From: Bacillota bacterium
GTDB lineage: Bacteria > Bacillota > Limnochordia > Darwinibacteriales > Darwinibacteriaceae
Reading direction: 5' to 3'
NCBI GenBank assembly: GCA_012837385.1
Contig: DURH01000001.1
Coordinates: forward strand, 1,349 to 65,348
Length of the DNA stretch: 64,000 bases
Shown here: piece by piece, positions 10,988-46,281 of the stretch
Numbering within the stretch: the stretch's first letter is position 1
Layout of the letters: every line of letters starts with the position of its first letter
The notes under the pieces: generated by a model
The model's input: only the letters and a program-made list of their open reading frames with translations
Database searches by the model: none
What the model was told of the DNA's origin: nothing
Made by a program: the position numbers and the translations under genes

Positions 10988-11085
10988 ACACGCTGTAAGT
11001 TGCGGATAAGCTGGGTAACCAGCTTATCCTTTTTCTTTCTCCTGGGCATAATAGCAAGTGCAAGCTTGGGAGAGGAGCGGCGGTA

Positions 11086-12780: not shown

Positions 12781-12832
12781 TTTTCCAAACTATGATACAA
12801 TGAAGGTACATTAACCAAATGGGGGTGTAGAA

Positions 12833-15247
12833 ATGGCACAGAAGGTTACCTCTCAGATGTTTCCGTTGCTACCTCTCCGTGGAATGCTTGTGTTCCCCTA
12901 TATGGTTACACCGCTGGAAGTTGGGCGTCACCGTTCAATAGAAGCTATTGAACAGGCCATGGTTGGGGATGGGCGTATCGTTTTGGCGACACAGCATCAG
13001 GTGGACACTGAAGAGCCTCAGCCTGAAGAAATATATCATGTTGGTACCCTTTGCGAAATCAAGCAGCTGCTGAAAGTACCAGAGGGCCAAGTTCGGGTTC
13101 TGGTAGAGGGTCTGGCCCGAGTCACCCTGGAACATATAGACGATGCTAATGGTTACTACGAAGCATATGTAACCGTTGTCCCTGAAATGAATGGAGAGAT
13201 GAACAGCCTGGAGCTTGATGCGCTGGTGCGCAGCGTCCGGGAAGAGTTTGGGAAGTATGTACGGCTTGGAAAGAAGATACCGGCAGAAGTGTTGATGTCG
13301 GTGACAAATATCGAAGATCCCCATCGTCTGGCAGATACCATAGCAAGCCAGCTCTTGGTTTCTTTCCAGGAAAAGCAGAGGCTGCTTGAGATCTTGCCCG
13401 TGGACAAGAGACTGGAGGCCATTTTAGGCCTGCTCTACCGGGAAGGTGAGATCCTCAATCTGGAGAAGTCCATCCAGCAGCGCGTCCGCAAGCAGATGGA
13501 GAAAGCTCAGCGTGAATACTACCTAAGGGAGCAGATTAAGGCTATCCAGGTGGAGCTGGGCGAACGTGATGAGAAGGGCAAAAGTGAGACGGAGGAGCTC
13601 AAGGAGAAGCTGCAGAAAGGCAAGCTGCCTAAGGAAGCCAAAGCAAAAGTTCTCCATGAGATTCACCGTTTGGAGCGCATGGCGCCCATGTCCGCAGAAG
13701 CAACCGTTGTCCGGAATTATATCGATTGGATGCTGTCTCTGCCCTGGTCGAAGCGGACCAAGGATCGCTTGGACCTCAATGTGGCAGAGGAAATACTGGA
13801 CCGTGATCATTACGGCCTAGAGCAAGTTAAAGAGCGCATACTGGAGTTTCTAGCTGTGCGCCAGCTGACTAAGAACTCTAAGGGACCCATTCTCTGCTTA
13901 GTAGGCCCGCCTGGGGTAGGCAAGACATCCCTAGCCCAATCTGTGGGCAATGCCTTAAACCGCAGTTTTGCCCGTCTTTCCTTGGGCGGTGTGCGGGATG
14001 AAGCCGAGATCAGAGGGCATCGGCGCACTTATATTGGATCCATGCCTGGGCGCATAATCCAGACCATGCGAACCGTCGGCAGCCGCAATCCTGTAATTGT
14101 CCTAGATGAAATTGACAAGTTGGCCTCTGATTTTAGAGGAGATCCGGCATCAGCCCTTTTGGAAGTATTGGATCCTGAACAGAATAATCGTTTCGGAGAC
14201 CATTACCTGGAAGTTCCCTTTGACCTCTCTGAGGTACTGTTTATCACCACAGCCAATGTGCTGCATTCCATTCCGCCTCCGCTTAGGGACAGAATGGAGG
14301 TTATCACCATACCCGGCTACACCGAGTATGAGAAGTTTGAGATCGCTAAACGCCACCTGTGGCCCAAACAGCTTCAGGCCAACGGTCTGAGGCCTGAGCA
14401 GATCCAGATTTCCGATAACACCATCTTCAAGGTGATCAACGAGTACACCAAAGAGGCTGGGGTGAGAACCTTAGAACGCAGACTGGGGACCATTTGCCGC
14501 AAGGTGGCCACGGAGATCGTCAAGGGCCAGATCACCACGGCCCGCATAACCGTGAGCAATCTCCACAAATACCTTGGCGTACGCCGCTACACCCAGACCA
14601 TGGCTGATCAGGAAGACAAGGTGGGAGTAGCTACAGGCTTGGCCTACACCCAAGTAGGCGGCGAGATCCTCAGCATTGAAGTTACCGTGATAGACGGCAA
14701 GGGTAAGCTGACGCTTACTGGAAAACTCGGTGAAGTGATGCGAGAATCCGCCCAGGCAGCGCTCAGTTATGTGCGCTCCCGAGCAGTGGAGCTGGGTATC
14801 GATCCCAGGTTCCACGAGAACAAGGATATCCATATGCATATTCCAGAAGGGGCAGTCCCCAAGGACGGGCCTTCCGCGGGAATCACCATTGCTACCGCCC
14901 TGGCCAGTGCCTTAACCAACAGGCCAGTGCGCCATGATGTATCCATGACTGGAGAGATCACCTTGAGGGGCAGAGTGCTGCCTATCGGTGGAGTAAAGGA
15001 GAAGCTGTTGGCTGCCCACCGGGCGGGGATTAGCAGGGTACTGCTGCCCATCGAGAATGAGAAGGATCTGGAAGAAGTGCCAGCCAACATCCTCGGCAAA
15101 CTCCAGATTTCCTTTGTGGAGCACATGGATCAGGTGTTGGCCCATGCCCTGTATCCAGAGCCGGTGGAACCTGAGACTCCTGCCTTCATGGTTCCCGAGG
15201 CTGCTCCTGTGGTCGATGAGCCCTGGATGGGAGAACATGAGGTATGA
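12833..15247 (+). CDS. lon: ATP-dependent protease La (LonA)
   Basis: An 804-aa protein with a Lon N-domain ([23 protein letters not shown]), AAA+ GPPGVGKTS, and a protease domain [18 protein letters not shown] with the catalytic Ser. Confidence 0.95.
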
Positions 15248-15825
15248 GCCTGAACTTGCATAGGGCTGAGTTTCTCACCAGCGCCGTCAACGCCAGGGGA
15301 TATCCTGTCCATGATCTGAAGGAAATAGCTTTGGTGGGGCGGTCGAATGTGGGCAAGTCTTCTCTAATTAACACTCTGGTGAATCGAAGGAAGTTTGCCC
15401 GTACCTCCACCCAGCCAGGCAGGACCCAGACCATCAACTTTTACCAAGTGGACAGCCTGTGCTTGGTGGACCTGCCGGGTTACGGATTTGCCAAGGTACC
15501 GGCGGCTGTGCGCAGCGCATGGCGGCCCATGATTGAAGGCTACCTCACTGGCCGGCCGAATCTGGTAGGCGTACTGCACCTAGTTGATGTGAGACACGAG
15601 CCTACCAAGGATGATCTGGTCATGGGCACCTGGCTCAGCACCATGGGTGTGCCCTCAGTCTTGATTGCCACCAAGGTGGACAAGATCAGCAGGGGGCAGT
15701 ATCAGAAACATGTAAAGATGATTAAGAACGCATTGGGCAAGGAACCAGTGCTCTTTTCAGCCCAGACCAAGGAGGGCCGTGAGGACATCCTCCAGGTTAT
15801 CTGCGAGCTTGGTGGGGTGGATTAG
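15244..15825 (+). CDS. engB: ribosome-biogenesis GTPase EngB/YihA/YsxC
   Basis: [13 protein letters not shown]1 motif and a DLPGYG G3 motif. The start overlaps the lon stop (ATGA). Confidence 0.9.
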
Positions 15826-19736: not shown

Positions 19737-19773
19737 AAGAGTCGACGGACCGCAGTCCATCGACTCTTTTCTT
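19737..19773. terminator. bidirectional terminator between the hypothetical gene and thrS
   Basis: AAGAGTCGACGGAC-CGCA-GTCCATCGACTCTT hairpin with T runs on both strands. It overlaps the thrS stop. Confidence 0.7.
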
Positions 19774-21505
19774 AGTTGTTCTTCTTCTCCGCGATTTCTT
19801 GCTGGATTCTGTCTAGAAAGTCTTGGACAGTTAGCGCACCCAGATCGCCCTCGCGGCGGTGGCGTATGGAAACCTGGCCGCTCTCTTGCTCCTTTTTGCC
19901 CACAATGAGCATGTAGGGAATCTGCTGCAGCTGGGCTTCCCGGATTTTTTTGCCAAGCTTTTCGTCTCGCCGGTCCACCTCTACTCGTACTCCGGCAGCA
20001 AAGAGAGTGTCAGCCACTTCCTGTGCATAGGCCAGGTAGTCATCGCCCACAGGGATCACTTGCACTTGAACTGGGGCCAGCCAAGTGGGGAATGCTCCCG
20101 CGGTGTGCTCCACGAGGATAGCGATAAACCGCTCCAGGGCACCATAGATAACCCTGTGGAGCATAACTGGCCGCTTTCTCTCGTTGTCTTCATCGATATA
20201 GGTGAGATCGAAGCGCTCTGGCATGGCAAAATCCAGCTGGATGGTGGCGCACTGCCAGGTTCGTCCCAAGTTGTCCTCTAAATGGAAGTCAATCTTGGGG
20301 CCGTAGAAGGCTCCGTCCCCTTCATTCACTACATAATCCAAGTTCTTTCTTTCCAGAGCCTGCCGCAGGGCCTCGGTGGCCTGCTCCCACATCTCATCGT
20401 CGCCGATGGCGTTTTCAGGCTTGGTGGACAGCTCCACATGGTATTTGAACCCGAAAGCCTTATACACATAGTCTACGAAGTCAATTACCCCGATGATCTC
20501 CTCTTGAATCTGGGAAGGCAGCATAAAGATGTGGGCATCATCCTGGGTAAAGGCTCGAACGCGCATGAGCCCGTGCAGGGTACCTGAGAGTTCATGCCGG
20601 TGCACCAAACCCATCTCTGCCATTCGAATGGGCAGATCTCGATAGGAGTGGAGCTTACGCTTGTACATAAGCATGGAACCAGGGCAGTTCATGGGCTTGA
20701 TGGCAAAGGTTTGCTCATCAATGGTTGAGAAGTACATATTATCCTTATAGTTGTCCCAATGGCCCGACCGGTGCCACAGATCCTCGTGGAGTATGATGGG
20801 GGTTTTAATCTCCACATACCCGCGCTTGCGGTGCTCTTCCCGCCAGTACTCCTCCAGGAGGTTGCGGAGCACCATGCCCTTGGGATGGAAGAAGGGAAAG
20901 CCCGGCCCTTCGTCTTGGATACTGAACAGATCCAGTTGCCTTCCGATCACCCGGTGGTCGCGCTTGGCCGCCTCTTCCAGCCTATGCAAATGCTCTTCCA
21001 GGTCCTTCTTCTTTAAGAAGGCAGTTCCGTAGATGCGCTGCAGCATCTGGCGCTTGGAGTCGCCCCGCCAATAAGCGCCGGCAATGCTCTGCAGCTTAAA
21101 GTGCTTTACCTGCGAAGTTCTGTCTAGATGGGGACCGCGGCACAGATCCACAAACTCGCCCTGGCGGTAAATGCTGACGCCTTCGTCAAGCCCCTCCAGC
21201 AGTTCAAGTTTATAGCCTTGGTTCTGGGCTCTAAAGAGAGCCACAGCGTCTGCGTTGCTGATTTCTTCCCGGACAATGGGCAGGTCCTCAGCGACGATCT
21301 TTTTCATTTCTGCCTCAATCTTTTCCAGGTCATCGGGGGTAAACCGATGCTCTAGATCGAAGTCGTAGTAAAAACCGTTTTTGATAACCGGTCCGATGGC
21401 AATCTTAGTTTCAGGCCACAGCCTCAATACGGCTTGGGCCATAATATGGGCAGTGGTGTGACGCAAAATCTCCTCTTGTTCTACCATGTCGATATTTTCG
21501 TTCAC
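19772..21505 (-). CDS. thrS: threonine--tRNA ligase lacking the N-terminal TGS/N1 domain
   Basis: Collinear with ThrRS from the editing (N2) domain onward: HTTAHIMAQAVLRLWPETKIAIGPVIKNGFYYDFD, class II motifs (FRAEM..., GTLHGLMRVRAFTQDDAHIF), and an anticodon-binding C-terminus. GTG start 21505 follows an AAAGGAG RBS. The T-box terminator lies directly upstream, so there is no room for an N1 domain. Confidence 0.9.
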   Translation of the reverse strand: MNENIDMVEQEEILRHTTAHIMAQAVLRLWPETKIAIGPVIKNGFYYDFDLEHRFTPDDLEKIEAEMKKIVAEDLPIVREEISNADAVALFRAQNQGYKLELLEGLDEGVSIYRQGEFVDLCRGPHLDRTSQVKHFKLQSIAGAYWRGDSKRQMLQRIYGTAFLKKKDLEEHLHRLEEAAKRDHRVIGRQLDLFSIQDEGPGFPFFHPKGMVLRNLLEEYWREEHRKRGYVEIKTPIILHEDLWHRSGHWDNYKDNMYFSTIDEQTFAIKPMNCPGSMLMYKRKLHSYRDLPIRMAEMGLVHRHELSGTLHGLMRVRAFTQDDAHIFMLPSQIQEEIIGVIDFVDYVYKAFGFKYHVELSTKPENAIGDDEMWEQATEALRQALERKNLDYVVNEGDGAFYGPKIDFHLEDNLGRTWQCATIQLDFAMPERFDLTYIDEDNERKRPVMLHRVIYGALERFIAILVEHTAGAFPTWLAPVQVQVIPVGDDYLAYAQEVADTLFAAGVRVEVDRRDEKLGKKIREAQLQQIPYMLIVGKKEQESGQVSIRHRREGDLGALTVQDFLDRIQQEIAEKKNN

Positions 21506-21514: not shown

Positions 21515-21775
21515 CCTTTCTTTCTGGGAATATAAAAAACCTCAGTCCACATGGGACGAGGTTCTCGCGGTTCCACCCAAATTGATCGTAATCCGATCCA
21601 CTCATTACGCAGGTAACGGCTGCTCCGGCACGGCCTACTGTTAGTTCAGCCGGCAACTCCTAGGTGGTTTTCACCGCAGCATCTCTGGGGGAGCTCTCAG
21701 CATCCCGCTCCCTTCTCTGTCAGGTAAGCGTCGGCTACTCTTCCTAATCATCGTCTCTATCTATTGTTTCTAAGA
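21515..21775 (-). ncRNA. T-box riboswitch leader of thrS
   Basis: Minus strand 21583-21566 reads AATTTGGGTGGAACCGCG, matching the T-box consensus AATTAGGGTGGNACCGCG. It is followed by the terminator hairpin AACCTCGTCCCA-TGTG-GACTGAGGTT plus T6 at 21515-21560. A stem I region with GGGAGC...GCTCCC and a candidate specifier GAAA-ACC-A (Thr codon ACC) lie upstream. Confidence 0.75.
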
Positions 21776-25747: not shown

Positions 25748-25777
25748 GGGCTGGGTCTAGGACCTGGCCCTTTTCTG
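25748..25777 (+). terminator. rho-independent terminator after the NuoL-like gene
   Basis: GGGCTGGGTC-TAG-GACCTGGCCC (10-bp stem including 2 G-U pairs) followed by TTTTCTG. Confidence 0.55.
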
Positions 25778-25851: not shown

Positions 25852-25880
25852 ACAGGAAAGATTGAATGAAAAAACCATGT
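25852..25880 (+). promoter_or_regulatory. sigma-A-type promoter for the MacB-type ABC operon
   Basis: TTGAAT (25852-25857), a 17-nt spacer, then TATACT (25875-25880). AAGGAGAGG RBS and the ATG at 25922 follow. Confidence 0.55.
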
Positions 25881-25921
25881 AGGGTATACTTATACTACCA
25901 GGCTGTCAAGGAGAGGATCAC

Positions 25922-26635
25922 ATGGCCATTGTGGAACTAGAGAACGTTCGAAAGGTCTACACCTTGGGCAAGACAGAAGTGCACGCGTTGAGAGGTGTGT
26001 CTTTTTCCATCGAAAAGGGGGATTTCGCTTCCATTGTGGGCCCCTCAGGCTCGGGAAAGTCAACCATCCTCAATCTCATTGGCTGCATCGACCAGCCCAC
26101 TGCGGGAACGGTAAGCATCAACGGGACTATTACAGAAGGCCTCAAAGATCGGGCACTCACCGATCTGCGCCACAAGACAGTTGGATTCATCTTTCAATCC
26201 TTCAACCTTATTCCTGTCTTGAATGTGTATGAAAACATCGAGTTCCCCCTGCTCCTAGGTAAGAACCGGGTGAACAAAAAGGAAATGCGGGAATGGATCG
26301 AGTTTTTGATCGAAGCAGTGGGCCTAGCTGATCACATGCGCCACAAATCCAATGAACTTTCCGGCGGCCAGAGGCAGCGAGTGGCTATTGCTCGGGCTCT
26401 GGTTACCAAGCCGGAAATTGTTTTGGCTGACGAGCCCACGGCTAACTTGGACTCTAAGACGGGCCAGAGCATTATCGAACTGATGAAAAAGATGAATGCC
26501 GAGCTGAATACTACTTTCATCTTTTCCACCCATGACACCACCATAATGAGTATCGCTGATCACGTCATCCGGCTTTTGGATGGCCTGGTGGTGGAAGACA
26601 CCAAGGCAGCGGCAGCGGCGGGGGGTCTGTCATGA
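25922..26635 (+). CDS. ABC transporter ATP-binding protein (MacB/LolD/FtsE-like)
   Basis: Walker [13 protein letters not shown] signature [15 protein letters not shown], Walker B ILADEPT, H-loop STHD. Confidence 0.9.
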
Positions 26636-28113
26636 GAATCCTGCTCACCATTGCCTGGCGCAATGTGCGCCAGCATAAAGTAAAGACGACCATCATCGGG
26701 CTGATTATGGTGATTGGCATCATGGTGCTGGTGGTGGGCAACTCCTTTATGGATACCGCCGCTTCCGGCATTGAAAGGTATTACATCAAGAACTACACCG
26801 GCCATCTGATGATTACCGGCCAGAGCAAGGGCCATCTCACCCTCTTCGGCTTCCAGGATTTGACCGCCATGGAGCAGACGGTGCCTAGGATACCGGACTA
26901 TGCTGAGATTGTGGAGTTTGCTAGTTCCCTTCCCTATGTGGAAACCATTAATCCTCAGGTGTCGGCAACTGCCATTGTCTCCAGGGGCGAGAAAACACTT
27001 GGTGCAACCCAGCTCTTCGGTGTTGTTCCTGGGCAGTACCAGGAGATGTTTCCAGACAATGTGGAGATTCTCGAGGGGGGCTATTGGCAGCCGGGAGAGC
27101 AGGGCATACTGCTCAATAAGACGGTGGCAGAGCTGTTGGAGAAACAGGTGGGCTTTACCTTTAGGCCCGGCGATAAGCTTCTGTTCACTTCGGTGAGCAC
27201 CCATACGGGGATGAGGATCCGGGAAGTGGAGATCACCGGAATTTTCCGCTTCAAGCAATCCAATATCCAGCTGGACATGGTTTCCCTGATGGACGTATCC
27301 AATGCCAGGGCCCTGGCTGGTATGGTAGTGGGGCACACTGATCCTGCGGAGTTAACCAGCGAGGAGCAGCGCTTTCTAGGAGCAATTGATGAAGACAGCA
27401 TTTTCGACTCCTTTGATTCCTTGTTTACCGATGTGGATGTGGAAGAACCTGCTGCCGATGATGACTTCTGGTTCTCCATCCTTGGCGAGACAGAGACTAG
27501 GGATCTTTCCAATGAGGAAGATACGGGAGCATGGCAGTACCTCTTGGTGCGCCTCACCGATGAGAAGTACCTCAGGCAGGCAGAGGCTGACTTCGCCCAG
27601 TTCTTTGCTGAGAGGGGCATTGCTGCCCAGACCAGGAACTGGCGGGAGGGTGCAGGCGCCCTGGCAGAACTCTCTTACGGGATCAAGAGTGTGTTCAATA
27701 CGGTGGTGTTCATTATCGCTGTGGTGGCGGTGATCATTATCATGAACACCCTGGTTATCTCCGTGACGGAACGCATGAGCGAGATCGGCACCATGCGGGC
27801 CATTGGGGCACAGAAGAGTTTTGTCCGCCGCATGATTGTCCTGGAGACGATGCTGCTTTCGGGGATTTCAGGCACAGTGGGAGTGGCAGCCGGCGGGCTG
27901 ATCCTCTTGATCCTGAATAGGATAGGACTGAAAGCCAGCAACGTGTTCTTTGAGATTATCTACGGAGGACCTGAGCTCAGGCCTATGCTGTCTTTGTCTT
28001 CGGTGATTCTGTCTTTTGTAGTGATTCTGGCGGTGGGTGCAGTTTCCAGTGCCTATCCCACAGCCATTGTGATGAAGACTTCGCCGCTTAGGGCTATGGA
28101 AAGTTCGAGGTGA
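26632..28113 (+). CDS. ABC transporter permease, FtsX/MacB fold (TM1, large extracytoplasmic domain, 3 C-terminal TMs)
   Basis: N-terminal TM (TIIGLIMVIGIMVLVVG), an extracytoplasmic domain of about 300 aa, and a C-terminal FtsX domain (ISVTERMSEIGTMRAIGAQKSFV). Confidence 0.85.
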   Translation: MRILLTIAWRNVRQHKVKTTIIGLIMVIGIMVLVVGNSFMDTAASGIERYYIKNYTGHLMITGQSKGHLTLFGFQDLTAMEQTVPRIPDYAEIVEFASSLPYVETINPQVSATAIVSRGEKTLGATQLFGVVPGQYQEMFPDNVEILEGGYWQPGEQGILLNKTVAELLEKQVGFTFRPGDKLLFTSVSTHTGMRIREVEITGIFRFKQSNIQLDMVSLMDVSNARALAGMVVGHTDPAELTSEEQRFLGAIDEDSIFDSFDSLFTDVDVEEPAADDDFWFSILGETETRDLSNEEDTGAWQYLLVRLTDEKYLRQAEADFAQFFAERGIAAQTRNWREGAGALAELSYGIKSVFNTVVFIIAVVAVIIIMNTLVISVTERMSEIGTMRAIGAQKSFVRRMIVLETMLLSGISGTVGVAAGGLILLILNRIGLKASNVFFEIIYGGPELRPMLSLSSVILSFVVILAVGAVSSAYPTAIVMKTSPLRAMESSR

Positions 28114-28117
28114 TCAG

Positions 28118-29443
28118 ATGTTCACACTGAAGGTGGCCTTTCGCAATATCTCCCGGCAGAAGAAGCGCAGCTTTCTTTTGGCCGGTGCCATCGCCTTCGG
28201 CATGCTGGTCATTACCATCATCAATGCCCTAACAGGGGGGCTGGTGGCGAATATCAGGGAGAATTTTTCCCATGCCCTGGGAGGCCATGTGTTTATTACA
28301 GGGCGGGAGTTTAACGAACGAGGTCAGATTATCTCGAAAATCCGCCCAGATGTCCGGATGGATCAGCTTTTGGAGGACAATGCAGGCCGTATCCAGGCCT
28401 TTACCAAGCGGAGCCAAGCCCTGCCTTCGCTGATCTTTGGCTCCAAACAGACCATGCAGCTGGTCTATGGAGTGGACTTCCACGAAGAAGACAAGCTCCT
28501 GGGCAGCCTGGCTGTACTCAAAGGTTCCTTGGCTGAGGTGCTCACCGATGAGCATGCGGTGATTCTGCCCCAACCTGCAGCCAACCGCTTAGGGGTTGAT
28601 GTGGGAGAGACCATCTTAGTCAAACTGGAAACCCTCACCGGGCAGCAAAACGTAGGTGAGCTCCGAGTGGTAGCCTTTGTGGAAGACCAAGAGCAGTTTG
28701 GGCTTTCCGCAGCCTATGTCAGCAGGTCCTATTTGAACACCCTCATCGGTTTGGGGCCAGAGGAGTACCAGATGCTCAACATGTTCGTCACAGACCTAGC
28801 CTTCGTGGAGGACTTTACTCGGGCCTTCAGGGAGGGCCTCCTCACTCCCGAGGAACAGCAGGAAGAAGAGGAACCCACTGTCTCAGTTACAGTGGGCGGC
28901 GTACCCATTGATCCCACACCCCGCCAGGAAACTATCACCCGCTGGGAAGGGACGCGCTACCGCGTGATGAACATCAACCAGATTATGGAGCCAGTGGAGC
29001 TCATGGTGGGAGTTCTGAATCGGGTGGGCTTGGTCATCTTTATCATTCTCCTTCTGGTGACCATGGTGGGTATCACTAATACCTTCCGCATGATCCTGTT
29101 GGAACGCACCAGAGAAATCGGCACCATGCGAGCCTTTGGCATGCATCAAAAGCAGGTGCAGCACATCTTCTTGTGGGAAGCAGTGCTCCTGGGGCTCACC
29201 GGCTGTGTGGCAGGTTTGGCACTGTCGGGACTGCTGATCGCGGTAGTGGGCCGCTGGCCGTTAAATGTTGACCCTTCACTGCACTTTTTCTTAAACCACG
29301 GCCGCATCACTTTCAGCCTCTCTGCTGGCAGTATCGTGCTGAACACTGCCCTGGTTGTACTCACCAGCCTGGTGGCCGCTTACTGGCCATCCCGGGCTGC
29401 GGCCAAGCTTTCGCCCATCAAGGCGCTCAGTTCTCATACATAG
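28118..29443 (+). CDS. ABC transporter permease, FtsX/MacB fold (second copy)
   Basis: Same architecture as the first permease; FtsX motif LLERTREIGTMRAFGMHQKQV. Confidence 0.85.
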   Translation: MFTLKVAFRNISRQKKRSFLLAGAIAFGMLVITIINALTGGLVANIRENFSHALGGHVFITGREFNERGQIISKIRPDVRMDQLLEDNAGRIQAFTKRSQALPSLIFGSKQTMQLVYGVDFHEEDKLLGSLAVLKGSLAEVLTDEHAVILPQPAANRLGVDVGETILVKLETLTGQQNVGELRVVAFVEDQEQFGLSAAYVSRSYLNTLIGLGPEEYQMLNMFVTDLAFVEDFTRAFREGLLTPEEQQEEEEPTVSVTVGGVPIDPTPRQETITRWEGTRYRVMNINQIMEPVELMVGVLNRVGLVIFIILLLVTMVGITNTFRMILLERTREIGTMRAFGMHQKQVQHIFLWEAVLLGLTGCVAGLALSGLLIAVVGRWPLNVDPSLHFFLNHGRITFSLSAGSIVLNTALVVLTSLVAAYWPSRAAAKLSPIKALSSHT

Positions 29444-29453
29444 GGAGGTTGCC

Positions 29454-30215
29454 ATGAACAAAAAAATGCAGTTAATTGCCGCGGTTCTTCTGATCTTTGC
29501 GCTGGCCCAGGCAGTCCAGGCGCAGGATTTCAGCCATATGGAAGCGATTCTAGAAAGGATCGACGCTCAATCCCGCTTCGACGGCATGGACTTTTCCTGC
29601 GTGCTCACCATGATTGTGGAAGACCCAGAAGAGGGGATTGAAAAACTAGTAGTCAGACAGTTTCGGCGGGATGATGGGGAACGCTACCTGCTGCTGATCC
29701 AAGAGCCTGTCACCCAAAGGGGCCAGGGATATCTCTTGGAGGGCGATAACTTGTGGTTCTACGACCCCTCTAGTAGGCAGTTCGCCCATACTTCCCTGAA
29801 AGAGACTTTCCAGGATTCCGATGTGCGCAACGCCGACTTCGGGCAGAGTTCTTATGCATCGTCCTATGAAGTGGAAGGGTATCTCGAGGGCATCCTAGGC
29901 AATTTTGACGTGTACATCATTGAACTGAAAGCGGTCGATGATACAGTACCCTTCCCCTATGCCAAGATCTGGGTAACGAAGGATTCTAACTTGGTGCTCA
30001 AGGCAGAGGAATACAGCTTGACCCGCAGGCTGATGCGCTCAGCACTCTTTCCTAAGTATACCAAGGTGGGAGAGGCTGTGATCCCTGTGCAGATGGTCTT
30101 CGTGGACGAATTGGTGGAAGGCAAGAAGACCCAGGTCAGCCTCAGTGAGATCTCTGTAAGCCAGATTCCAGATCATGTCTTTACCAAGGCCTATATTGAA
30201 CGAGTAAACCGCTAG
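29454..30215 (+). CDS. LolA-like (lipoprotein-sorting/RseB-fold) secreted protein
   Basis: Signal peptide MNKKMQLIAAVLLIFALAQAVQAQ. The body has the LolA-like pattern of an unclosed beta-barrel (...YLLEGDNLWFYDPSSRQFAHTS...). The start is ATG 29454 after GGGAGG. The listed ORF has a 33-codon overlap extension. Confidence 0.45.
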   Translation: MNKKMQLIAAVLLIFALAQAVQAQDFSHMEAILERIDAQSRFDGMDFSCVLTMIVEDPEEGIEKLVVRQFRRDDGERYLLLIQEPVTQRGQGYLLEGDNLWFYDPSSRQFAHTSLKETFQDSDVRNADFGQSSYASSYEVEGYLEGILGNFDVYIIELKAVDDTVPFPYAKIWVTKDSNLVLKAEEYSLTRRLMRSALFPKYTKVGEAVIPVQMVFVDELVEGKKTQVSLSEISVSQIPDHVFTKAYIERVNR

Positions 30216-30237
30216 GATAATCTCAAGGAGGGAAACC

Positions 30238-31530
30238 ATGCGCAGGACAATTTTACTTGGTGTGCTCCTGGCTGTGCTCGTCTGGAGCGGGACAAGCTGG
30301 GCCATGGATTTCGATGATCTCTTCGGTGGCGACTTGCTCATTGAGCTTGACCCCGAGGAAACGGTGGTGGCCCCTGAAGAGGCCCTCTTGGTTCAAGACC
30401 GCGTAGAGGTGGGAGGCAGGTACAACTTTAGCCTCAATGCTTCCAGGACAATTGCAGAGGGGGCCGATCCCTCAAACGATTTCCGGGCTTCCCTAGGTGG
30501 CCAGCTCTACCTGGATGCGAGGCCGGATCCGAACTTCCGGGCCTTTGGTAAAGTGGGGATCAACTACAACGTCAATAACAAAGAAAAACCCCTCACGGCT
30601 GAACTCCAGGAACTGTTTGCCGATTTCAACTACGGTAATAAGGTGTTTTTTCGGGCGGGCAAACAGAATGTCAAGTGGGGTGTGGGCTATTTCTTTAGTC
30701 CCGCGGACATTATCAATATTGGACGCATTGATCCCCTGAATCCTGAAGCGGAGCGGGAGGGCCCGGTTGCCCTCAAGATGCACTATCCCAGAGGAACAAA
30801 CAACTTCTACCTGTACACCCTCTTTGATGGTGTCACAGATGTACAACAGATAGCTTTTGCGCCTAAAGTGGAGTTTGTGGCCGGTAAGACGGAGTACAGT
30901 CTAGGAGGCTTCTATCAGAAAGACGACCATCCCCGGGTGATGGCTACGGTATCGTCTTCTTTTGGCGATATAGGTTTCTTTGGCGAAGCGGTAGCCGCCT
31001 GGGGTTCAGACCGGGGCTTTTTGGAGCCAAAAGGACCAGCCTATGAAATCGCAGAAAAGAAAGGCCTGTTCCTGCAGGTGACCGCTGGAGGGATGTACCG
31101 CTGGAAAGACAGCGAGGGGCTCTTAGATCTATCGGGAACCCTGCAGTACTACTTCAACGGAGAAGGATACAAGGATCAAGAGGGGATTAAAGCGGTGCGA
31201 TTGGCTTTGCTGAACCAAGGGTTTCCCCCTGTAGTCAACCCCCTCAAACTGGACTCCTTGGCGCTCTTGGGCAGCGGCAGGCATTATCTGGCTGGCGCCC
31301 TGTCCTGGAATAAGATGTTCGGGTCCAAGTTCTCAGCCTCCGTTTTTCTCCAGGCAAACCTGTCTGATGGTTCAGGGATGATCCACAGCACTCTGCGCTT
31401 GCCGTCAGTGAGCAAGATTTCACCCAGCATTGGTGTGAGTACCAACTTCGGATCTCCAGGCACGGAGTTTGGAGCCTTAGGGCGCACAGTCATGGTGTTT
31501 GCCGCGATAACCATAGGAGACTCTTTCTAG
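30238..31530 (+). CDS. secreted beta-strand-rich protein, candidate outer-membrane beta-barrel (hypothetical)
   Basis: Signal peptide MRRTILLGVLLAVLVWSGTSWA. It has many short amphipathic alternating segments (VEVGGRYNFSLNAS, FRAFGKVGINYNV, EYSLGGFYQK, LFLQVTAGGMYRWK) and is rich in G/Y/N/S. The C-terminus ...VMVFAAITIGDSF ends in Phe. Confidence 0.45.
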   Translation: MRRTILLGVLLAVLVWSGTSWAMDFDDLFGGDLLIELDPEETVVAPEEALLVQDRVEVGGRYNFSLNASRTIAEGADPSNDFRASLGGQLYLDARPDPNFRAFGKVGINYNVNNKEKPLTAELQELFADFNYGNKVFFRAGKQNVKWGVGYFFSPADIINIGRIDPLNPEAEREGPVALKMHYPRGTNNFYLYTLFDGVTDVQQIAFAPKVEFVAGKTEYSLGGFYQKDDHPRVMATVSSSFGDIGFFGEAVAAWGSDRGFLEPKGPAYEIAEKKGLFLQVTAGGMYRWKDSEGLLDLSGTLQYYFNGEGYKDQEGIKAVRLALLNQGFPPVVNPLKLDSLALLGSGRHYLAGALSWNKMFGSKFSASVFLQANLSDGSGMIHSTLRLPSVSKISPSIGVSTNFGSPGTEFGALGRTVMVFAAITIGDSF

Positions 31531-31580: not shown

Positions 31581-31638
31581 AAAAGGGCCGTGCGGAATGA
31601 ACCACTCGAAGTTCATTCCGCAACGGCCCCTTATTTTT
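31581..31638. terminator. strong bidirectional terminator between the beta-barrel-like gene and cheX
   Basis: GGGCCGTGCGGAATGAAC-CACTCGAA-GTTCATTCCGCAACGGCCCC with T/A runs on both sides. Confidence 0.8.
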
Positions 31639-37523: not shown

Positions 37524-38231
37524 CTACACGCTGATGGCCAGCTCCAAAGCGATCTCCATCATGTTCCTGAAGCCTACCTGGCGGTCATGGGCGGGCAGCT
37601 CCTGGGCGGTGTAGATCTCATCGGAAATGGTGAGCATGCAGAGTGCGTTTTTCTTAGCTTGGACGGCATTCATGTACAGGGCTGCCGCTTCCATCTCTAC
37701 TGCGAGCACGCCCATTTCCTTCCAGGCATCGGGCCTGCCGTATTTATTGTAGAAGACGTCCGACGAAAGCACGTTGCCCACAAAGAAGCGCTGCCCCTTT
37801 GCTTCGGCAATCTGCACAGCCTTGCTGAGCAGCTCCCAAGAGGCGATGGGGGCATAGGTGCCAGGCAGCTTGTACTGATAGGCGTAATTGGAATCGGTGC
37901 AGGCTCCCATAGCGAACACCATGTCCATGATCTTGACATCGTCATGGATGGCGCCTGCAGAACCGATGCGGATAATATTGTCCACATCATACATATTGTA
38001 CAGTTCATAGGTGTAGATTCCAATGGAAGGCATGCCCATACCGTGACCCTGCACGGACACGGGCTTTCCCTTATACAGGCCTGTAAAGCCGTACATGCCC
38101 CGTACTTCATTATAACATTTTACATCTTCCAGGTAAGTTTCTGCAACGAATTTCGCCCGCAGGGGGTCGCCTGGCATCAAAACAGTTTTCGCAATATCGC
38201 CTGGCTTGGCTGCATTATGCGGTGTAGTCAT
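37524..38231 (-). CDS. deoD: purine nucleoside phosphorylase, DeoD type
   Basis: Collinear with E. coli DeoD (TPHNAAKPGDIAKTVLMPGDPLRAKFVAETYLED...VSVQGHGMGMPS). The start is the second ATG (MTTPH), 6 nt after GAGGAGG. Confidence 0.9.
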   Translation of the reverse strand: MTTPHNAAKPGDIAKTVLMPGDPLRAKFVAETYLEDVKCYNEVRGMYGFTGLYKGKPVSVQGHGMGMPSIGIYTYELYNMYDVDNIIRIGSAGAIHDDVKIMDMVFAMGACTDSNYAYQYKLPGTYAPIASWELLSKAVQIAEAKGQRFFVGNVLSSDVFYNKYGRPDAWKEMGVLAVEMEAAALYMNAVQAKKNALCMLTISDEIYTAQELPAHDRQVGFRNMMEIALELAISV

Positions 38232-38364
38232 GTTCATCCTCCTCGCAAGATATCTTTCGCTCTATACTTTGACAAATGAGACGTACTTCCTTCACGCCGC
38301 GGGGGCGGGACGCGTTCCCCTGCATATTCTGTACGGACATCATCTCGTACAAGGAGGAAGTACT

Positions 38365-38955
38365 GTGGCAGTAACTCATCTTGTGGAAACGGGAGAAACC
38401 CTGTGGAGCATCAGCCTCAAATATGATGTGAGCGTGGAAGCAATCCGTATGGCCAACTCCTTAACCAGCGATCTGATTTACCCCGGACAGGAGCTGCTTA
38501 TTCCTGAGCAAGCGGAGCAGGCCCAAGATACAGTCACCACAGCCACTCTGCCCTCCCTGGAAGGAGGATTTGCCCTGCCCGAGGGCAGCTATACTCACCA
38601 GGATCTAGAAGATATTGCCCTCTTGGCTCGGCTGGTTTTTGCTGAGGCCAGGGGAGAGCCCTTTGAGGGGCAGGTCGCTGTAGCCGCTGTGCTGCTCAAC
38701 AGGGTAAAGCACCCCGAGTTCCCCAACACTGTGTGGGCAGCCGTCTATCAGCCGGGCCAGTTTGAACCTGTGGCCAATGGTTCCATTAACCAGATACCCA
38801 ACAATCTGGCCTACCTGGCGACAATGGAGGCGTGGCTGGGGAGTGATCCCACTTCTGGCGCCCTCTTTTTCTGGAATCCAGTCAAGGTTCCCGCTTCCAG
38901 CTGGGTATGGACCCTTCCGGTGAAACTGCAGATTGGCGGCCATGTCTTTGCCTAG
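38365..38955 (+). CDS. LysM domain plus SleB/CwlJ-type (Hydrolase_2) cell-wall hydrolase
   Basis: LysM: HLVETGETLWSISLKYDVSVEAIRMANSL...GQELLIP. SleB-like C-terminal domain: LLARLVFAEARGEPFEGQVAVAAVLLNRV...GQFEP. GTG start 38365 follows AAGGAGGAAG. The listed longer ORF would overlap deoD. Confidence 0.75.
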   Translation: MAVTHLVETGETLWSISLKYDVSVEAIRMANSLTSDLIYPGQELLIPEQAEQAQDTVTTATLPSLEGGFALPEGSYTHQDLEDIALLARLVFAEARGEPFEGQVAVAAVLLNRVKHPEFPNTVWAAVYQPGQFEPVANGSINQIPNNLAYLATMEAWLGSDPTSGALFFWNPVKVPASSWVWTLPVKLQIGGHVFA

Positions 38956-44854: not shown

Positions 44855-45002
44855 GGCACCACTTCCCTCTCTACAATCCGCTCTACTAGCTTATGAGACT
44901 GTGATTCTTTGGTGCCAATGCAACTGGAGGTGCTGGGAGAAACAGGGTTTTGTCCTGCAGACGAGAATGTATAGGGAATACTGGTGGTAAGGAGAAACAT
45001 TT

Positions 45003-45632
45003 ATGGACTTGGATGCTATGAGGGAATTGGCACACAAAGCCATGGTCAGACGCTGCACCCACCCAGATCGGGAACGGGGTTTTGTCTACTACCACGGCCA
45101 AAGGGTGGCTGAGATCGCCCTTCAGCTGCGTGAACTGATCTTTCCTGGGGAGGAAAGCTGGGACGAGGTGATCACAGCCGCGGGTTGGTTCCATGATGTG
45201 GGGAAGGGCATTGAACCGCACTGGGAGTATGGGGCCCTGTTGGTCAGGGAGATGCTCAAAGACCACTGCTCGCCCCAGGAATTGGAGCAGATTGCGGAGA
45301 TCGTGGGCAGCCATACCCTCCGCAAACAGAGGGAGTACCCCCCCTATGTGCAGCTGGTGCAGGATGCTGACATCCTGGACCATTTCGGCACCCTGGACAT
45401 TTGGTTGGACTTCTGGCACTGTGCCTGCCGGGGTAAAGGTCTGGAAGATGCGTTAGAGTTCTATGGAGACGAGTATCTGCAGAAGGTGGAGAGTGTGGCG
45501 AGCCTGCTCAACTTCCCGGAGTCAGTGGAGATTCTCCAGGAGAAAATGCTGTTTGCCCGAGAGTTCGCTGAGCGGTTTAGGCGCGAAGCCGCGGGAGAGC
45601 TGATCCTCAAAAGAAAAAAGGCCAAGGATTAA
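45003..45632 (+). CDS. HD-domain phosphohydrolase
   Basis: H...HD motif (GWFHDVGK) and a further His (GSHTL). Confidence 0.7.
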   Translation: MDLDAMRELAHKAMVRRCTHPDRERGFVYYHGQRVAEIALQLRELIFPGEESWDEVITAAGWFHDVGKGIEPHWEYGALLVREMLKDHCSPQELEQIAEIVGSHTLRKQREYPPYVQLVQDADILDHFGTLDIWLDFWHCACRGKGLEDALEFYGDEYLQKVESVASLLNFPESVEILQEKMLFAREFAERFRREAAGELILKRKKAKD

Positions 45633-45662: not shown

Positions 45663-45926
45663 TCAGTAAGAACTGCTTTGCTCGTTATTGATGGTGATCT
45701 GCACCGTATCTGTTAGTACGTCAGCATAGGTATAAGAACGGCGGCGAACTGCATTTGTTTGGTCCAAATCTACTACAAACAATTTCGGGTATGTTTCTAC
45801 TAAGATTCCCTCAGATTCTAAGTAACGGCGGCGTCCCTTGTTAGCTCTGATGAAGACCTTCTTCCCTAGATTTGACTCTAGATGCTGTTTGATCTCTTCA
45901 ATTGTGGTCGGCTTTTCTACACCCAT
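45663..45926 (-). CDS. veg: Veg (biofilm-formation stimulator / DUF1021)
   Basis: 87 aa, collinear with B. subtilis Veg as I recall it (LESNLGKKVFIRANKGRRRYLESEGILVETYPKLFVVDLDQ...RSYTYADVLTDTVQITI). Confidence 0.8.
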   Translation of the reverse strand: MGVEKPTTIEEIKQHLESNLGKKVFIRANKGRRRYLESEGILVETYPKLFVVDLDQTNAVRRRSYTYADVLTDTVQITINNEQSSSY

Positions 45927-46165: not shown

Positions 46166-46281
46166 GCGTTTCGTATGAATCTGTTTTCATTACAAAACGG
46201 TGTGGATATAGTATAGCATAATACTTAGGAATATGTCAAGGGTAAAAGACTAGATCCCGTACAGGCTTGGGGGTAAGACTG

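What the first reader, a model, noticed from the sequence alone, without database searches (positions are those of the whole stretch)
25922..31530. MacB/Lol-type ABC module followed by a LolA-like protein and a beta-barrel-like secreted protein: a possible lipoprotein or envelope trafficking system
One FtsE/LolD-like ATPase is followed by two paralogous FtsX/MacB-fold permeases. Each has one TM helix, an extracytoplasmic domain of about 300 aa and three TM helices, which is the LolC/LolE architecture. Next come a signal-peptide protein with LolA-like character and a 430-aa signal-peptide protein built from many short amphipathic beta-hairpin-like segments that ends in Phe.

All five genes are codirectional and tightly spaced. 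A sigma-A promoter lies upstream and a strong terminator downstream.

In a spore-forming Firmicute this set resembles the Lol pathway of diderm bacteria: LolCDE with periplasmic LolA and an outer-membrane component. If the last protein is a genuine outer-membrane beta-barrel, the organism may be a diderm Firmicute (Negativicutes-like or Limnochordia-like), and the locus would be a compact envelope-biogenesis or export system that is poorly characterised in that group.
Basis: inference. Interest (0 to 1): 0.55.

Follow-up and report, generated by a model that had tools for sequence, protein, structure and literature searches.

The report
ABC pump, LolA-like carrier, outer-membrane barrel
A five-gene operon in a Limnochordia-type (two-membraned) Firmicute encodes an ATP-driven inner-membrane extractor, a LolA-fold periplasmic carrier and an outer-membrane beta-barrel; it most likely moves a greasy cargo out across the envelope and is built like the Lol lipoprotein pathway without belonging to it.

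Summary
Five co-directional, tightly packed genes (25922-31530) encode an MJ0796/LolD/MacB-type ATPase, two divergent paralogous FtsX + MacB_PCD permeases (1+3 TM), a signal-peptide LolA_like protein (PF17131, 135 bits) and a signal-peptide protein ending in Phe. AlphaFold predicts the last one as an 18-20-strand barrel (pLDDT 82), and Foldseek matches only outer-membrane porins.

The same A-B-C-D-E cassette is intact in 46 of 48 related loci with enough flank. These come from Limnochordia/DTU010-type Bacillota and from Spirochaetota. Limnochordia are documented diderms, so that guess is supported at lineage level.

The operon is not Lol. LolD and LolCE equivalog scores fail, canonical LolA (PF03548) does not match, and a barrel stands where LolB would be.

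The carrier and barrel are remote relatives of the DUF1329/DUF1302 pair. That pair works with an RND pump in AmeABCD of Castellaniella, where there is experimental evidence for hydrophobe export.

Best reading: an ABC-powered variant of that carrier-plus-barrel export module, cargo unknown. In Spirochaetes a two-component system follows the cassette, which suggests inducible use. A barrel-terminated lipoprotein or lipid route in a clade reported to lack Lol remains a minority possibility.

The parts
25862..25890 (+). promoter-like site (TTGAAT-17-TATACT), 32 nt upstream of the first gene
   Evidence: Consensus scan, 9 of 12 matches; not enriched over shuffles. The terminator of the upstream antiporter-subunit gene lies at 25748-25770, so an operon start here is plausible.
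25922..26635 (+). A: ABC ATPase of the MJ0796/LolD/MacB/YtrE clade (237 aa)
   Evidence: ABC_tran, E 4.9e-34. Best NCBIfam hit is LolD TIGR02211 at 236 bits, below its 307.75 cutoff. PDB best hits are MJ0796, YtrE, LolD and MacB. 67-90% identical in related loci.
26632..28113 (+). B: type VII ABC permease 1 (493 aa). TM1, an extracytoplasmic domain of about 300 aa with an acidic insert, then TM2-4
   Evidence: FtsX 63.3 bits and MacB_PCD 40.5 bits, both above cutoff. Hydrophobic segments at 15-44, 347-382, 401-434 and 448-481. The start overlaps the A stop by 4 nt.
28118..29443 (+). C: type VII ABC permease 2 (441 aa), a divergent paralogue of B. TM1, a domain of about 245 aa, then TM2-4
   Evidence: FtsX 77.7 bits and MacB_PCD 41 bits. 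31% identical to B over TM2-4. PDB hits are YtrF, MacB, LolC/E/F and FtsX, in the TM region only. Both paralogues are kept in nearly every related locus.
29454..30215 (+). D: soluble periplasmic LolA-fold carrier (253 aa; SPI-type signal peptide, no lipobox Cys)
   Evidence: PF17131 LolA_like, 135.3 bits. PDB 3BUU by sequence, E 7.7e-25. AlphaFold pLDDT 79.8. Foldseek: 3BUU, P. gingivalis LolA3 (9TP6), 3BK5 and a DUF1329 protein (4Z48) at TM 0.65-0.74; canonical LolA at TM 0.45-0.56.
30238..31530 (+). E: predicted outer-membrane beta-barrel, DUF1302-like (430 aa; signal peptide, C-terminal Phe)
   Evidence: AlphaFold pLDDT 81.6, pTM 0.75, about 20 strands. Foldseek hits are exclusively OM barrels (MOMP, OmpM1, OccAB1, AlgE; prob 1.00, TM about 0.5). 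DUF1302 scores only 16 bits, but hhalign to a true DUF1302 gives prob 89.9%. C-terminal F430 is at least 90% conserved.
31585..31629 (.). strong hairpin followed by a T-run between the convergent E and CheX genes (likely a bidirectional terminator)
   Evidence: dG -33.8 kcal/mol, z -6.44, 0 of 200 shuffles as stable; sequence read.

Best explanation
The operon encodes a three-compartment export route for a hydrophobic or amphipathic cargo.

Proposed steps:
1. Two copies of ATPase A power a heterodimer of the MacB-type permeases B and C. Like other type VII ABC systems, this would not carry substrate across the bilayer. It would use ATP-driven movement of its large periplasmic domains to pull cargo from the outer face of the inner membrane or from the periplasm.
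2. The cargo passes to the soluble LolA-fold protein D, which shields it in its hydrophobic half-barrel while it crosses the periplasm.
3. D docks on the DUF1302-like outer-membrane barrel E, which releases the cargo into or across the outer membrane.

The most likely cargo class is apolar small molecules or lipids (detoxification or efflux type), as for the RND-driven AmeABCD relative. Housekeeping lipoprotein sorting is less likely.

Shown here: domain identities, topology, predicted folds, operon structure, and cassette conservation across two phyla. Inferred: stoichiometry, direction of transport, the hand-over steps and the cargo.
For: - Components and topology.
- B and C are kept as a divergent pair with a single ATPase gene in 46 of 48 loci. 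This argues for an obligate heterodimer and a five-part functional unit.
- D has a LolA-superfamily fold with an SPI signal and no lipid anchor.
- E is a predicted porin-like OM barrel with a signal peptide and a conserved C-terminal Phe.
- The carrier and barrel are both remote homologues of the DUF1329/DUF1302 pair:
  - 15 of 46 E-family members hit PF06980, best E 2e-6.
  - hhalign to the Aromatoleum DUF1302 protein gives prob 89.9% over the shared motif ELF.DFN..V.FR.GKQ.V.WG..FF.P.D.
  - The adjacent Aromatoleum DUF1329 protein itself passes PF17131.
  - A DUF1329 crystal structure is among D's best fold matches.
- That pair sits with an MMPL/HAE3 RND pump. Deleting ameABCD in Castellaniella lowers monoterpene tolerance and raises Nile Red accumulation, which points to export (PMC6394551).
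- In P. putida the pair is needed on Tween 20 and is cofit with an RND pump.
- A Ralstonia plasmid carries LolA_like, ABC ATPase, a fused double FtsX permease and a DUF1302-like protein. All four are weakly homologous to D, A, B/C and E. ABC-driven versions therefore exist outside these two phyla.
- In 29 Spirochaete loci an OmpR-type regulator and a HAMP histidine kinase follow E directly, as expected for an inducible response system.
- From established knowledge of the family: all characterised type VII ABC systems extract or export.
Against: - No cargo, localisation or interaction was measured.
- AlphaFold coordinates could not be inspected. Barrel closure and the role of the highly conserved but low-confidence loop (residues 147-176) are inferred from Foldseek matches and pTM only.
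- No multimer prediction was available to test D-E or D-B/C docking.
- Homology of E to DUF1302 is local and below Pfam's threshold. Ten long E-family members gave no Pfam hit at all.
- In Limnochordia the cassette sits among housekeeping genes with no regulator. That would also fit a constitutive envelope-biogenesis role.
- The Pseudomonas phenotype on Tween 20 has also been read as esterase or uptake related.
Confidence: 0.55

Rival explanations
1. A Lol-analogous pathway that sorts lipoproteins to the outer membrane. B/C/A2 would extract acylated lipoproteins, D would ferry them like LolA, and barrel E would replace LolB as receptor or insertase, or flip them to the cell surface.
For: - The architecture parallels LolCDE-LolA: heterodimeric type VII permease, one ATPase gene and a soluble LolA-fold carrier.
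- LolD and lolCE are the top NCBIfam hits for A, B and C.
- Lol is reported as practically absent from Terrabacteria, including diderm Firmicutes. That survey searched LolA with PF03548 only, so a PF17131 system would have been missed.
- A comparable MacB-like + LolA-like + OM barrel cluster in Borrelia has been proposed to handle lipoproteins.
Against: - All Lol equivalog scores fall far below cutoff, and there is no PF03548 hit.
- The closest solved relatives of D are non-canonical LolA-superfamily proteins. P. gingivalis LolA3 does not bind LolB, lacks the LolA Arg and LolB Leu signatures, and is judged to have a separate function. Deleting lolA3 in F. johnsoniae gave no gliding or T9SS phenotype.
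- Spirochaetes carry the cassette although, from my own knowledge, they have canonical Lol genes. There the cassette is followed by a two-component system, which fits an accessory rather than a housekeeping role.
- The homologous DUF1302/DUF1329 modules are tied to hydrophobe metabolism or export.
- Ancestral Bam and Lpt of Terrabacteria are said to lack OM lipoprotein components.
Confidence: 0.13
2. An outer-membrane biogenesis or lipid-homeostasis system. It would deliver a membrane lipid, glycolipid or other envelope constituent from the inner to the outer membrane, acting constitutively in Limnochordia.
For: - In Limnochordia the cassette lies in a conserved housekeeping neighbourhood with no dedicated regulator.
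- It forms a single Bacillota clade, which suggests long vertical retention.
- Earlier authors proposed that the DUF1302/DUF1329/RND genes export a cell-wall component.
- LolA-fold proteins such as LprG carry lipids (fold hits).
- In five related Spirochaetia loci an Aas-like acyl-ACP synthetase/lysophospholipid acyltransferase lies just upstream.
Against: - No lipid-synthesis genes are linked in most loci.
- The Spirochaete link to a two-component system suggests conditional use.
- The NJ tree has no support values.
- The Aas-like neighbour is confined to one shallow clade.
Confidence: 0.15
3. An uptake route for hydrophobic nutrients such as long-chain fatty acids or esters. E would act as a FadL-like entry channel, and D would carry the substrate inward to the ABC system.
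For: - P. putida DUF1302/DUF1329 mutants fail on Tween 20 and butyl stearate.
- The Aromatoleum module is embedded in beta-oxidation genes.
- Anaerobic digesters, the habitat of the DTU010/MBA03 lineage, are rich in lipids.
Against: - From established knowledge, type VII (MacB/FtsX-fold) ABC systems have no transmembrane substrate path and no known importer. RND partners of the homologous modules are also exporters.
- The AmeABCD data indicate export.
- No catabolic genes are linked to the cassette in the window or in related loci.
Confidence: 0.07

Closest known systems
AmeABCD of Castellaniella defragrans, and the DUF1302/DUF1329 + Ycf48-like + HAE3-RND modules of Pseudomonas and Aromatoleum
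   Same: - A periplasmic LolA-superfamily protein is paired with an adjacent 18-strand-type OM barrel and an inner-membrane energy-coupled exporter.
- Both the carrier and the barrel are remotely homologous to D and E.
- There is experimental evidence for export of apolar compounds.
   Different: - The engine here is a heterodimeric type VII ABC transporter, not an RND/MMPL pump.
- No Ycf48/BNR protein is present.
- D is a 253-aa PF17131 protein, not a DUF1329 protein of about 420-450 aa.
- E is 430 aa and falls below the PF06980 threshold.
- The host is a Firmicute, not a Proteobacterium.
LolCDE-LolA-LolB lipoprotein sorting pathway (E. coli)
   Same: - One ATPase gene plus two paralogous 4-TM permeases with large periplasmic domains.
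- A soluble LolA-fold periplasmic carrier.
- Delivery to the outer membrane.
   Different: - Equivalog thresholds fail for LolD and LolC/E, and PF03548 does not match D.
- The terminal component is an integral beta-barrel, not the lipoprotein LolB.
- The cargo is unknown.
Borrelia BBJ23-BBJ29 cluster (MacB-like ABC, LolA-like protein, Omp85-family barrel)
   Same: [quoted passage not shown]
   Different: - The barrel there is Omp85/BamA-like, not DUF1302-like.
- The permease is homodimeric.
- Extra chaperone-like genes are present.
- It is plasmid-borne, and no sequence relationship to this cassette was tested.
LolA3 of Bacteroidota (P. gingivalis PGN0947; F. johnsoniae Fjoh_0605) and the iron-regulated PG1175-81 cluster type (LolA_like + MMPL + ABC ATPases)
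   Same: - LolA3-PG (9TP6) is one of D's best structural matches, TM 0.65-0.73.
- In the P. gingivalis PG1175-81 and Prevotella clusters, proteins annotated as outer membrane lipoprotein-sorting protein sit next to inner-membrane exporters. I did not establish that PGN0947/LolA3 is the protein of that cluster.
- LolA3 is shown not to pair with LolB.
   Different: - NCBIfam LolA3_fam scores only 12.6 bits for D.
- The partner pump is MMPL.
- The function is also unknown.
MacAB-TolC and other type VII ABC systems (YtrEF, BceAB, FtsEX)
   Same: FtsX + MacB_PCD permease fold and the NBD clade.
   Different: - No membrane-fusion adaptor or TolC-type duct is encoded here; a soluble carrier and a porin-like barrel take their place.
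- The permease is a heterodimer of two diverged paralogues.
Unnamed Ralstonia/Burkholderia plasmid module (LolA_like, ABC ATPase, fused 830-aa double-FtsX permease, 381-aa DUF1302-like protein)
   Same: The same four functional parts with weak homology in each: A 47% identical, C 24% over its full length, D 23%, and E sharing a motif plus its C-terminal 100 residues (hhalign prob 96.7%).
   Different: - Different gene order.
- The two permease halves are fused.
- It is annotated only; I found no literature on it.

Membership tests
Lol lipoprotein-sorting system | ATPase meets the LolD equivalog model (TIGR02211 cutoff 307.75 bits; PRK11629 cutoff 360) | tested here: not met
   236.3 and 203.6 bits. 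DarD, DevA, FtsE and MacB models score nearly as well.
Lol lipoprotein-sorting system | Permeases meet the LolC/LolE equivalog model (TIGR02212 cutoff 362.45 bits) | tested here: not met
   B 80.9 bits, C 75.0 bits, matching mainly the C-terminal TM region. PDB matches to LolC/E/F are no better than those to MacB or YtrF.
Lol lipoprotein-sorting system | Carrier belongs to the canonical LolA family (Pfam PF03548) | tested here: not met
   Only PF17131 is reported for D at E <= 0.1. The fold is LolA-like, but canonical LolA structures align at TM 0.45-0.56 against 0.65-0.74 for the 3BUU/LolA3/DUF1329 group.
Lol lipoprotein-sorting system | OM receptor is a LolB-type lipoprotein (or a bifunctional LolA) | tested here: not met
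   No operon protein has a lipobox Cys in its signal peptide. The fifth gene is a predicted integral barrel.
Lol lipoprotein-sorting system | Cargo is acylated lipoprotein; LolC Hook/Pad recruits the carrier | not testable with these tools
   This needs biochemistry or multimer modelling, neither of which was available.
Type VII (MacB/FtsX-fold) ABC transporters | FtsX C-terminal permease domain plus MacB-like periplasmic core domain, both above Pfam thresholds | tested here: met
   B: 63.3 and 40.5 bits. C: 77.7 and 41 bits. Cutoffs are 25.5 and 27.
Type VII (MacB/FtsX-fold) ABC transporters | Four TM helices with a large extracytoplasmic domain between TM1 and TM2; a separate or fused NBD of the MJ0796/LolD/MacB clade | tested here: met
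   Hydropathy segments. NBD best hits are MJ0796, YtrE, LolD and MacB.
MacAB-TolC-type tripartite efflux pumps | Membrane-fusion (MacA/DevB-type) adaptor and a TolC-family duct | tested here: not met
   No such gene lies in the operon or in the 64-kb window. Elsewhere in the genome was not testable.
LolA_like (Pfam PF17131, LolA superfamily) | Score above the gathering threshold (30 bits) and a LolA-type open beta-barrel fold | tested here: met
   135.3 bits. 3BUU by sequence, E 7.7e-25. Foldseek prob 1.00 to 3BUU, 9TP6, 3BK5 and 4Z48.
DUF1302 (Pfam PF06980) outer-membrane barrels | Score above the gathering threshold (23.2 bits) | tested here: not met
   E scores 16.1 bits, E 0.006, over 46 residues only. 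15 of 46 family members match at E <= 0.01. Ten long members show no hit.
DUF1302 (Pfam PF06980) outer-membrane barrels | Detectable homology to a bona fide member, and the same fold (18-strand barrel resembling OccAB1/AlgE) | tested here: inconclusive
   hhalign of the E family against the Aromatoleum DUF1302 protein: prob 89.9%, E 1.7e-6, 112 columns. E's top Foldseek hits include OccAB1 and AlgE at TM about 0.5, the same neighbours reported for DUF1302. This fits a remote sister family, not membership.
AmeABCD-type tetrapartite hydrophobe exporter | HAE3/MMPL RND pump and a Ycf48/BNR-like periplasmic protein alongside the DUF1302 and DUF1329 proteins | tested here: not met
   The engine here is ABC, and no RND or Ycf48-like gene lies in the operon. 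The reference arrangement was seen in Aromatoleum.
BAM-dependent outer-membrane beta-barrel proteins | Sec signal peptide, all-beta amphipathic strands forming a barrel, and a C-terminal aromatic residue (beta-signal) | tested here: met
   Signal segment 4-23 and C-terminal Phe. F430 is at least 90% conserved. About 20 strands, pTM 0.75. Only OM porins appear as fold matches. Closure was not inspected at coordinate level.
Diderm Firmicutes (Limnochordia) | The source genome encodes BamA, Lpt, OmpM and other OM machinery | not testable with these tools
   Only 64 kb is available and it contains none of these. [quoted passage not shown] The closest loci are labelled Limnochordia, Ca. Darwinibacter or UBA3914.

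The most novel reading that the evidence does not exclude
The cassette is the missing Lol-independent route by which diderm Firmicutes, and additionally Spirochaetes, deliver acylated proteins or a structural lipid to the outer membrane. A DUF1302-like beta-barrel would act as receptor or insertase in place of LolB. That would make this an ancient, barrel-terminated alternative to Lol in a clade reported to lack Lol.
Probability: 0.12. Interest if true: 0.85.

Novelty: new variant of a known kind. Interest (0 to 1): 0.5.

Why it matters
Envelope biologists currently hold that Terrabacteria, including the three diderm Firmicute lineages, essentially lack a Lol-type machinery. How these bacteria move very hydrophobic cargo across the periplasm is unclear.

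This locus shows that Limnochordia-type Firmicutes stably keep a complete inner-membrane extractor, periplasmic carrier and outer-membrane barrel set. A survey keyed on canonical LolA would miss it.

The locus also links three poorly understood protein families into one recurring design: PF17131 LolA_like/LolA3, DUF1329 and DUF1302. In that design a carrier-barrel pair can be driven by either an RND or an ABC engine.

The same cassette occurs in Spirochaetes, and a related module occurs on Ralstonia plasmids. If tractable strains carry them, cargo and direction could be tested genetically.

The presence of a BAM-type barrel family is in addition an independent sequence marker that the DTU010/MBA03 digester lineage is diderm. 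The class assignment of that lineage is disputed.

Tried and rejected
- **Lol orthology.** Rejected on NCBIfam equivalog cutoffs and the lack of a PF03548 match.
- **Straightforward DUF1302 membership of E.** Rejected. E is below the Pfam cutoff, only a third of family members give weak hits, and ten long family members from the 1.84-billion-protein search give none. A remote relationship is kept on hhalign and fold evidence.
- **Envelope or OM marker genes in the window.** I scanned 45 further ORFs against Pfam and found none. The window is a housekeeping region: tig-clpP-clpX-lonB-lon-engB, ThrRS, PFOR, FeoB, Trk, a PBP and ABC importers.
- **Reading Taib et al. 2020 directly.** The paper is not held. 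Its conclusions are cited through PMC11456536 and the Witwinowski preprint.
- **Conserved flanking genes as a clue to cargo.**
  - Limnochordia flanks are syntenic housekeeping genes.
  - Spirochaete flanks add a two-component system.
  - Other recurrent neighbours are uninformative: solute-binding proteins, an FAD oxidoreductase, DUF3095 and a UvrD-like helicase.
- **Odd/even hydropathy alternation of E's predicted strands.** It was only modestly stronger than in the soluble beta-protein D (2.23 against 1.72), so it is not used as evidence.
- **tblastn of E against plasmids.** It gave only short motif hits, but these led to the Aromatoleum and Ralstonia modules.
- **Not attempted.**
  - Multimer modelling: not available.
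  - The third homologue search was left unused.

Full report
**1. What is in the sequence**

Between 25922 and 31530 lie five + strand ORFs.

- **A (237 aa)** is an ABC ATPase (ABC_tran, E 4.9e-34). Its best solved relatives are MJ0796, YtrE, LolD and MacB.
- **B (493 aa) and C (441 aa)** each pass Pfam FtsX and MacB_PCD.
  - A hydropathy scan gives one N-terminal TM segment, an extracytoplasmic stretch, then three TM segments. The stretch is about 300 aa in B and about 245 aa in C.
  - They are diverged paralogues. They are 31% identical over TM2-4, and their periplasmic domains are barely alignable.
- **D** passes LolA_like PF17131 with 135 bits against a cutoff of 30.
  - Its true start is ATG 29454. 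That start has a GGGAGG ribosome-binding site and gives 253 aa, the length of essentially all homologues. The TTG at 29355 is not the start.
  - D has an SPI-type signal peptide and no lipobox cysteine.
- **E (430 aa)** has a signal peptide, no cysteine, and ends in ...GDSF.
- **Operon structure.** Spacings are -4, +4, +10 and +22 nt, and A, C, D and E have ribosome-binding sites.
  - The upstream gene ends with its own terminator-like hairpin at 25748-25770.
  - A 9/12 promoter-like match lies at 25862-25890, but such matches are not enriched in the region.
  - Downstream, a hairpin of -33.8 kcal/mol (z -6.4) with a T-run separates E from a convergent CheX gene.

**2. The fifth protein**

- I aligned E with 45 homologues. 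AlphaFold2 on that alignment gives pLDDT 81.6 and pTM 0.75, with about 20 beta-strands from residue 57 to the C-terminus.
- Foldseek against the PDB returns only outer-membrane barrels, all at probability 1.00 and TM about 0.5. They include Campylobacter MOMP, Veillonella OmpM1, OccAB1, AlgE, OprD-family channels and general porins.
- I could not inspect coordinates, so barrel closure is inferred.
- The C-terminal Phe is at least 90% conserved.
- The most conserved stretch of the family is W147-P176 (WGVGYFFSPAD.IN.GRIDP...EREGP). It falls in a low-confidence loop.
- A short acidic N-terminal motif (DDLFG) is also conserved. By inference, these are candidate plug or docking elements.
- Pfam gives only a sub-threshold DUF1302 hit: 16 bits against a cutoff of 23.2, over 46 residues.
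- Fifteen of 46 family members hit DUF1302 at E <= 0.01. Ten longer members found in the 1.84-billion-protein library hit nothing.
- That library holds 1923 clusters related to E at E <= 0.001.
- Profile comparison with a genuine DUF1302 protein from Aromatoleum gives probability 89.9% (E 1.7e-6) over 112 columns that carry the shared motif.
- E is therefore a remote sister of DUF1302, not a member.

**3. The carrier**

- D matches the crystal structure 3BUU ('LolA superfamily protein NE2245') by sequence, E 7.7e-25.
- Its AlphaFold model (pLDDT 79.8) aligns best with four structures at TM 0.65-0.74:
  - 3BUU;
  - P. gingivalis LolA3 (9TP6);
  - 3BK5;
  - a DUF1329-family protein (4Z48).
- Canonical LolA follows at TM 0.45-0.56, then LolB, RseB and LprG.
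- It is thus a LolA-fold protein of the non-canonical branch.
- The literature on that branch says:
  - LolA3-PG does not bind LolB and lacks the signature Arg and Leu residues.
  - lolA3 deletion in F. johnsoniae has no gliding or T9SS phenotype.

**4. Organism**

- The window carries a T-box leader before ThrRS and a c-di-AMP riboswitch.
- It also has the tig-clpP-clpX-lonB-lon-engB gene order, plus a SleB-like LysM hydrolase. Both are Firmicute hallmarks.
- The nearest homologues of D and E, and the nearest syntenic loci, are MAGs labelled Limnochordia bacterium, Candidatus Darwinibacter acetoxidans, Firmicutes bacterium UBA3914 and similar.
- The DTU010/MBA03 order is placed in Limnochordia by GTDB and SILVA, but in Clostridia by its describers.
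- Limnochordia carry outer-membrane marker clusters: all 46 UBA genomes analysed by Taib et al. had them. Cultured members show an outer membrane by TEM.
- I could not check BamA or Lpt in the source genome. No such gene lies in the 64 kb.

**5. Conservation**

- A scan of one genome per GTDB species found 287 loci encoding E relatives. The best 80 were fetched.
- tblastn with A-E shows the same five genes in the same order and strand in 46 of the 48 loci that have at least 4.7 kb upstream.
  - About 22 are Bacillota-labelled. Median identity to the window is A 82%, B 68%, C 65%, D 76%, E 52%.
  - About 24 are Spirochaetota. Median identity is A 70%, B 42%, C 39%, D 54%, E 37%.
- A rough NJ tree of D+E puts all Bacillota loci in one clade. 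It has no support values.
- In the Limnochordia-type loci the flanks are syntenic housekeeping genes, the same as in the window:
  - an Mrp/Nuo-type antiporter subunit upstream;
  - CheX, hemerythrin, GH130 and Fe-ADH downstream.
- In 29 Spirochaete loci E is followed directly by an OmpR-type response regulator and a HAMP histidine kinase.

**6. Is it Lol?**

No.

- LolD scores 236 bits against a cutoff of 308.
- lolCE scores 81 and 75 bits against a cutoff of 362.
- D does not match PF03548.
- No LolB-like lipoprotein is present.
- PDB matches of B and C are confined to the TM region. They are no better for LolC/E/F than for MacB, YtrF or FtsX.
- The 'LolC/LolE architecture' is the generic type VII ABC architecture. 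What is Lol-like is the logic: a heterodimeric extractor plus a soluble LolA-fold carrier.

**7. What it resembles more closely**

- Short tblastn hits of E's motif led to two annotated plasmid operons.
- **Aromatoleum EbN1**. The operon reads Ycf48-related, MMPL transporter, DUF1302, DUF1329. Its DUF1329 protein also passes PF17131.
- **Ralstonia insidiosa**.
  - The operon reads LolA_like, ABC ATPase, an 830-aa permease with two FtsX and two MacB_PCD domains, then a 381-aa protein.
  - That last protein ends in FF and weakly hits DUF1302.
  - It aligns to the E family at hhalign probability 96.7%.
  - All four parts show weak similarity to D, A, B/C and E.
- A homologous carrier-barrel pair therefore recurs with either an RND or an ABC engine.
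- The RND version has experimental data.
  - Deleting ameABCD in Castellaniella lowers monoterpene tolerance and increases Nile Red accumulation. The authors conclude export.
  - The P. putida pair PP_0765/0766 is required on Tween 20 and is cofit with an RND pump. AlphaFold predicts a DUF1302-DUF1329 complex.
- Conceptually similar clusters have been noted elsewhere:
  - in Borrelia, a MacB-like transporter, a LolA-like protein and an Omp85 barrel;
  - in P. gingivalis and Prevotella, LolA_like plus MMPL, iron-regulated.
- I found no paper describing this ABC + PF17131 + DUF1302-like cassette.

**8. Mechanism and verdict**

- The best-supported model is an ATP-driven relay. A2-B-C extracts a hydrophobic or amphipathic cargo at the periplasmic face of the inner membrane. 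D shields it across the periplasm. E receives it at the outer membrane.
- Direction (export) rests on the known behaviour of type VII ABC and RND engines and on the AmeABCD data. The cargo is unknown.
- The Spirochaete two-component system favours an inducible detoxification or efflux role. The regulator-free, vertically conserved Limnochordia context leaves room for a constitutive envelope role.
- The most novel reading that survives is a barrel-terminated substitute for Lol in a clade reported to lack Lol. I put it at about 0.12.
- Overall this is a real, strongly conserved, uncharacterised five-gene system. I rate it a new variant of a known but poorly understood kind, of moderate interest.

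Noticed in passing
L021:5757-7739 and 28 other Spirochaete loci (e.g. L022, L026, L037): In Spirochaetota the A-E cassette is followed directly, on the same strand, by an OmpR-type response regulator (about 230 aa) and a HAMP/HisKA/HATPase histidine kinase (about 435 aa). The kinase has a periplasmic loop of about 100 aa. The Limnochordia-type loci and the window lack this pair.
   Followed up: partly
L082 (Ralstonia insidiosa plasmid CP093305.1, 28073-33204); similar motif hits on other Ralstonia and Burkholderia plasmids: A proteobacterial plasmid operon encodes LolA_like, an ABC ATPase, a fused double-FtsX/MacB_PCD permease (830 aa) and a 381-aa DUF1302-like protein ending in FF. It is an ABC-driven relative of the window's cassette with a different gene order.
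   Followed up: partly
window 30676-30765 (E residues 147-176) and 30307-30330 (E residues 24-31): The most conserved segments of the E family are a loop that AlphaFold models with low confidence (WGVGYFFSPAD...GRIDP...EREGP) and a short acidic N-terminal motif (DDLFG) just after the signal peptide. They are not the barrel strands. They may be a plug or a docking element.
   Followed up: no
window 46035-46169 (-) and 45663-45926 (-): A c-di-AMP (ydaO-type) riboswitch on the minus strand sits directly upstream of an 87-aa ORF that looks Veg-like to my eye. It points away from the adjacent trkA/trkH potassium-uptake genes at 46267-49087 (+). The 177-aa minus-strand ORF at 44886-45419 is probably spurious, because it overlaps a 209-aa + strand ORF.
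   Followed up: partly
window 21549-21760 (-) and 19772-21505 (-): A T-box leader (122 bits) lies upstream of a threonyl-tRNA synthetase gene.
   Followed up: no
window 3000-6370 (+): A GT4 glycosyltransferase is followed, with a 4-nt overlap, by a 759-aa polytopic membrane protein. That protein has a signal-like N-terminus, a large N-terminal extracytoplasmic domain, and no Pfam family at E <= 1e-4. This may be an uncharacterised envelope glycan gene pair.
   Followed up: no
window 7649-15825 (+), 38206-38955 (+): The tig-clpP-clpX-lonB-lon-engB gene order is typical of Firmicutes. A LysM + Hydrolase_2 (SleB-like cortex hydrolase) gene fits an endospore-forming ancestry, but sporulation itself was not demonstrated.
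   Followed up: partly
L048:86-2395, and L057, L059, L066, L069 (one Spirochaetia clade): An Aas-like fusion protein lies two genes upstream of the cassette. It combines AMP-binding, PP-binding and acyltransferase domains, that is, acyl-ACP synthetase and lysophospholipid acyltransferase. This is a possible lipid-metabolism link, but it is confined to one shallow clade.
   Followed up: no
taxonomy of related loci: Record names of the Bacillota loci are inconsistent: Limnochordia, Clostridia, Clostridiaceae, Peptococcaceae, Natronincola and Candidatus Darwinibacter. The class placement of DTU010/MBA03 is disputed between GTDB/SILVA and its describers. A BAM-type barrel family shared by these MAGs could serve as a diderm marker for the group.
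   Followed up: no
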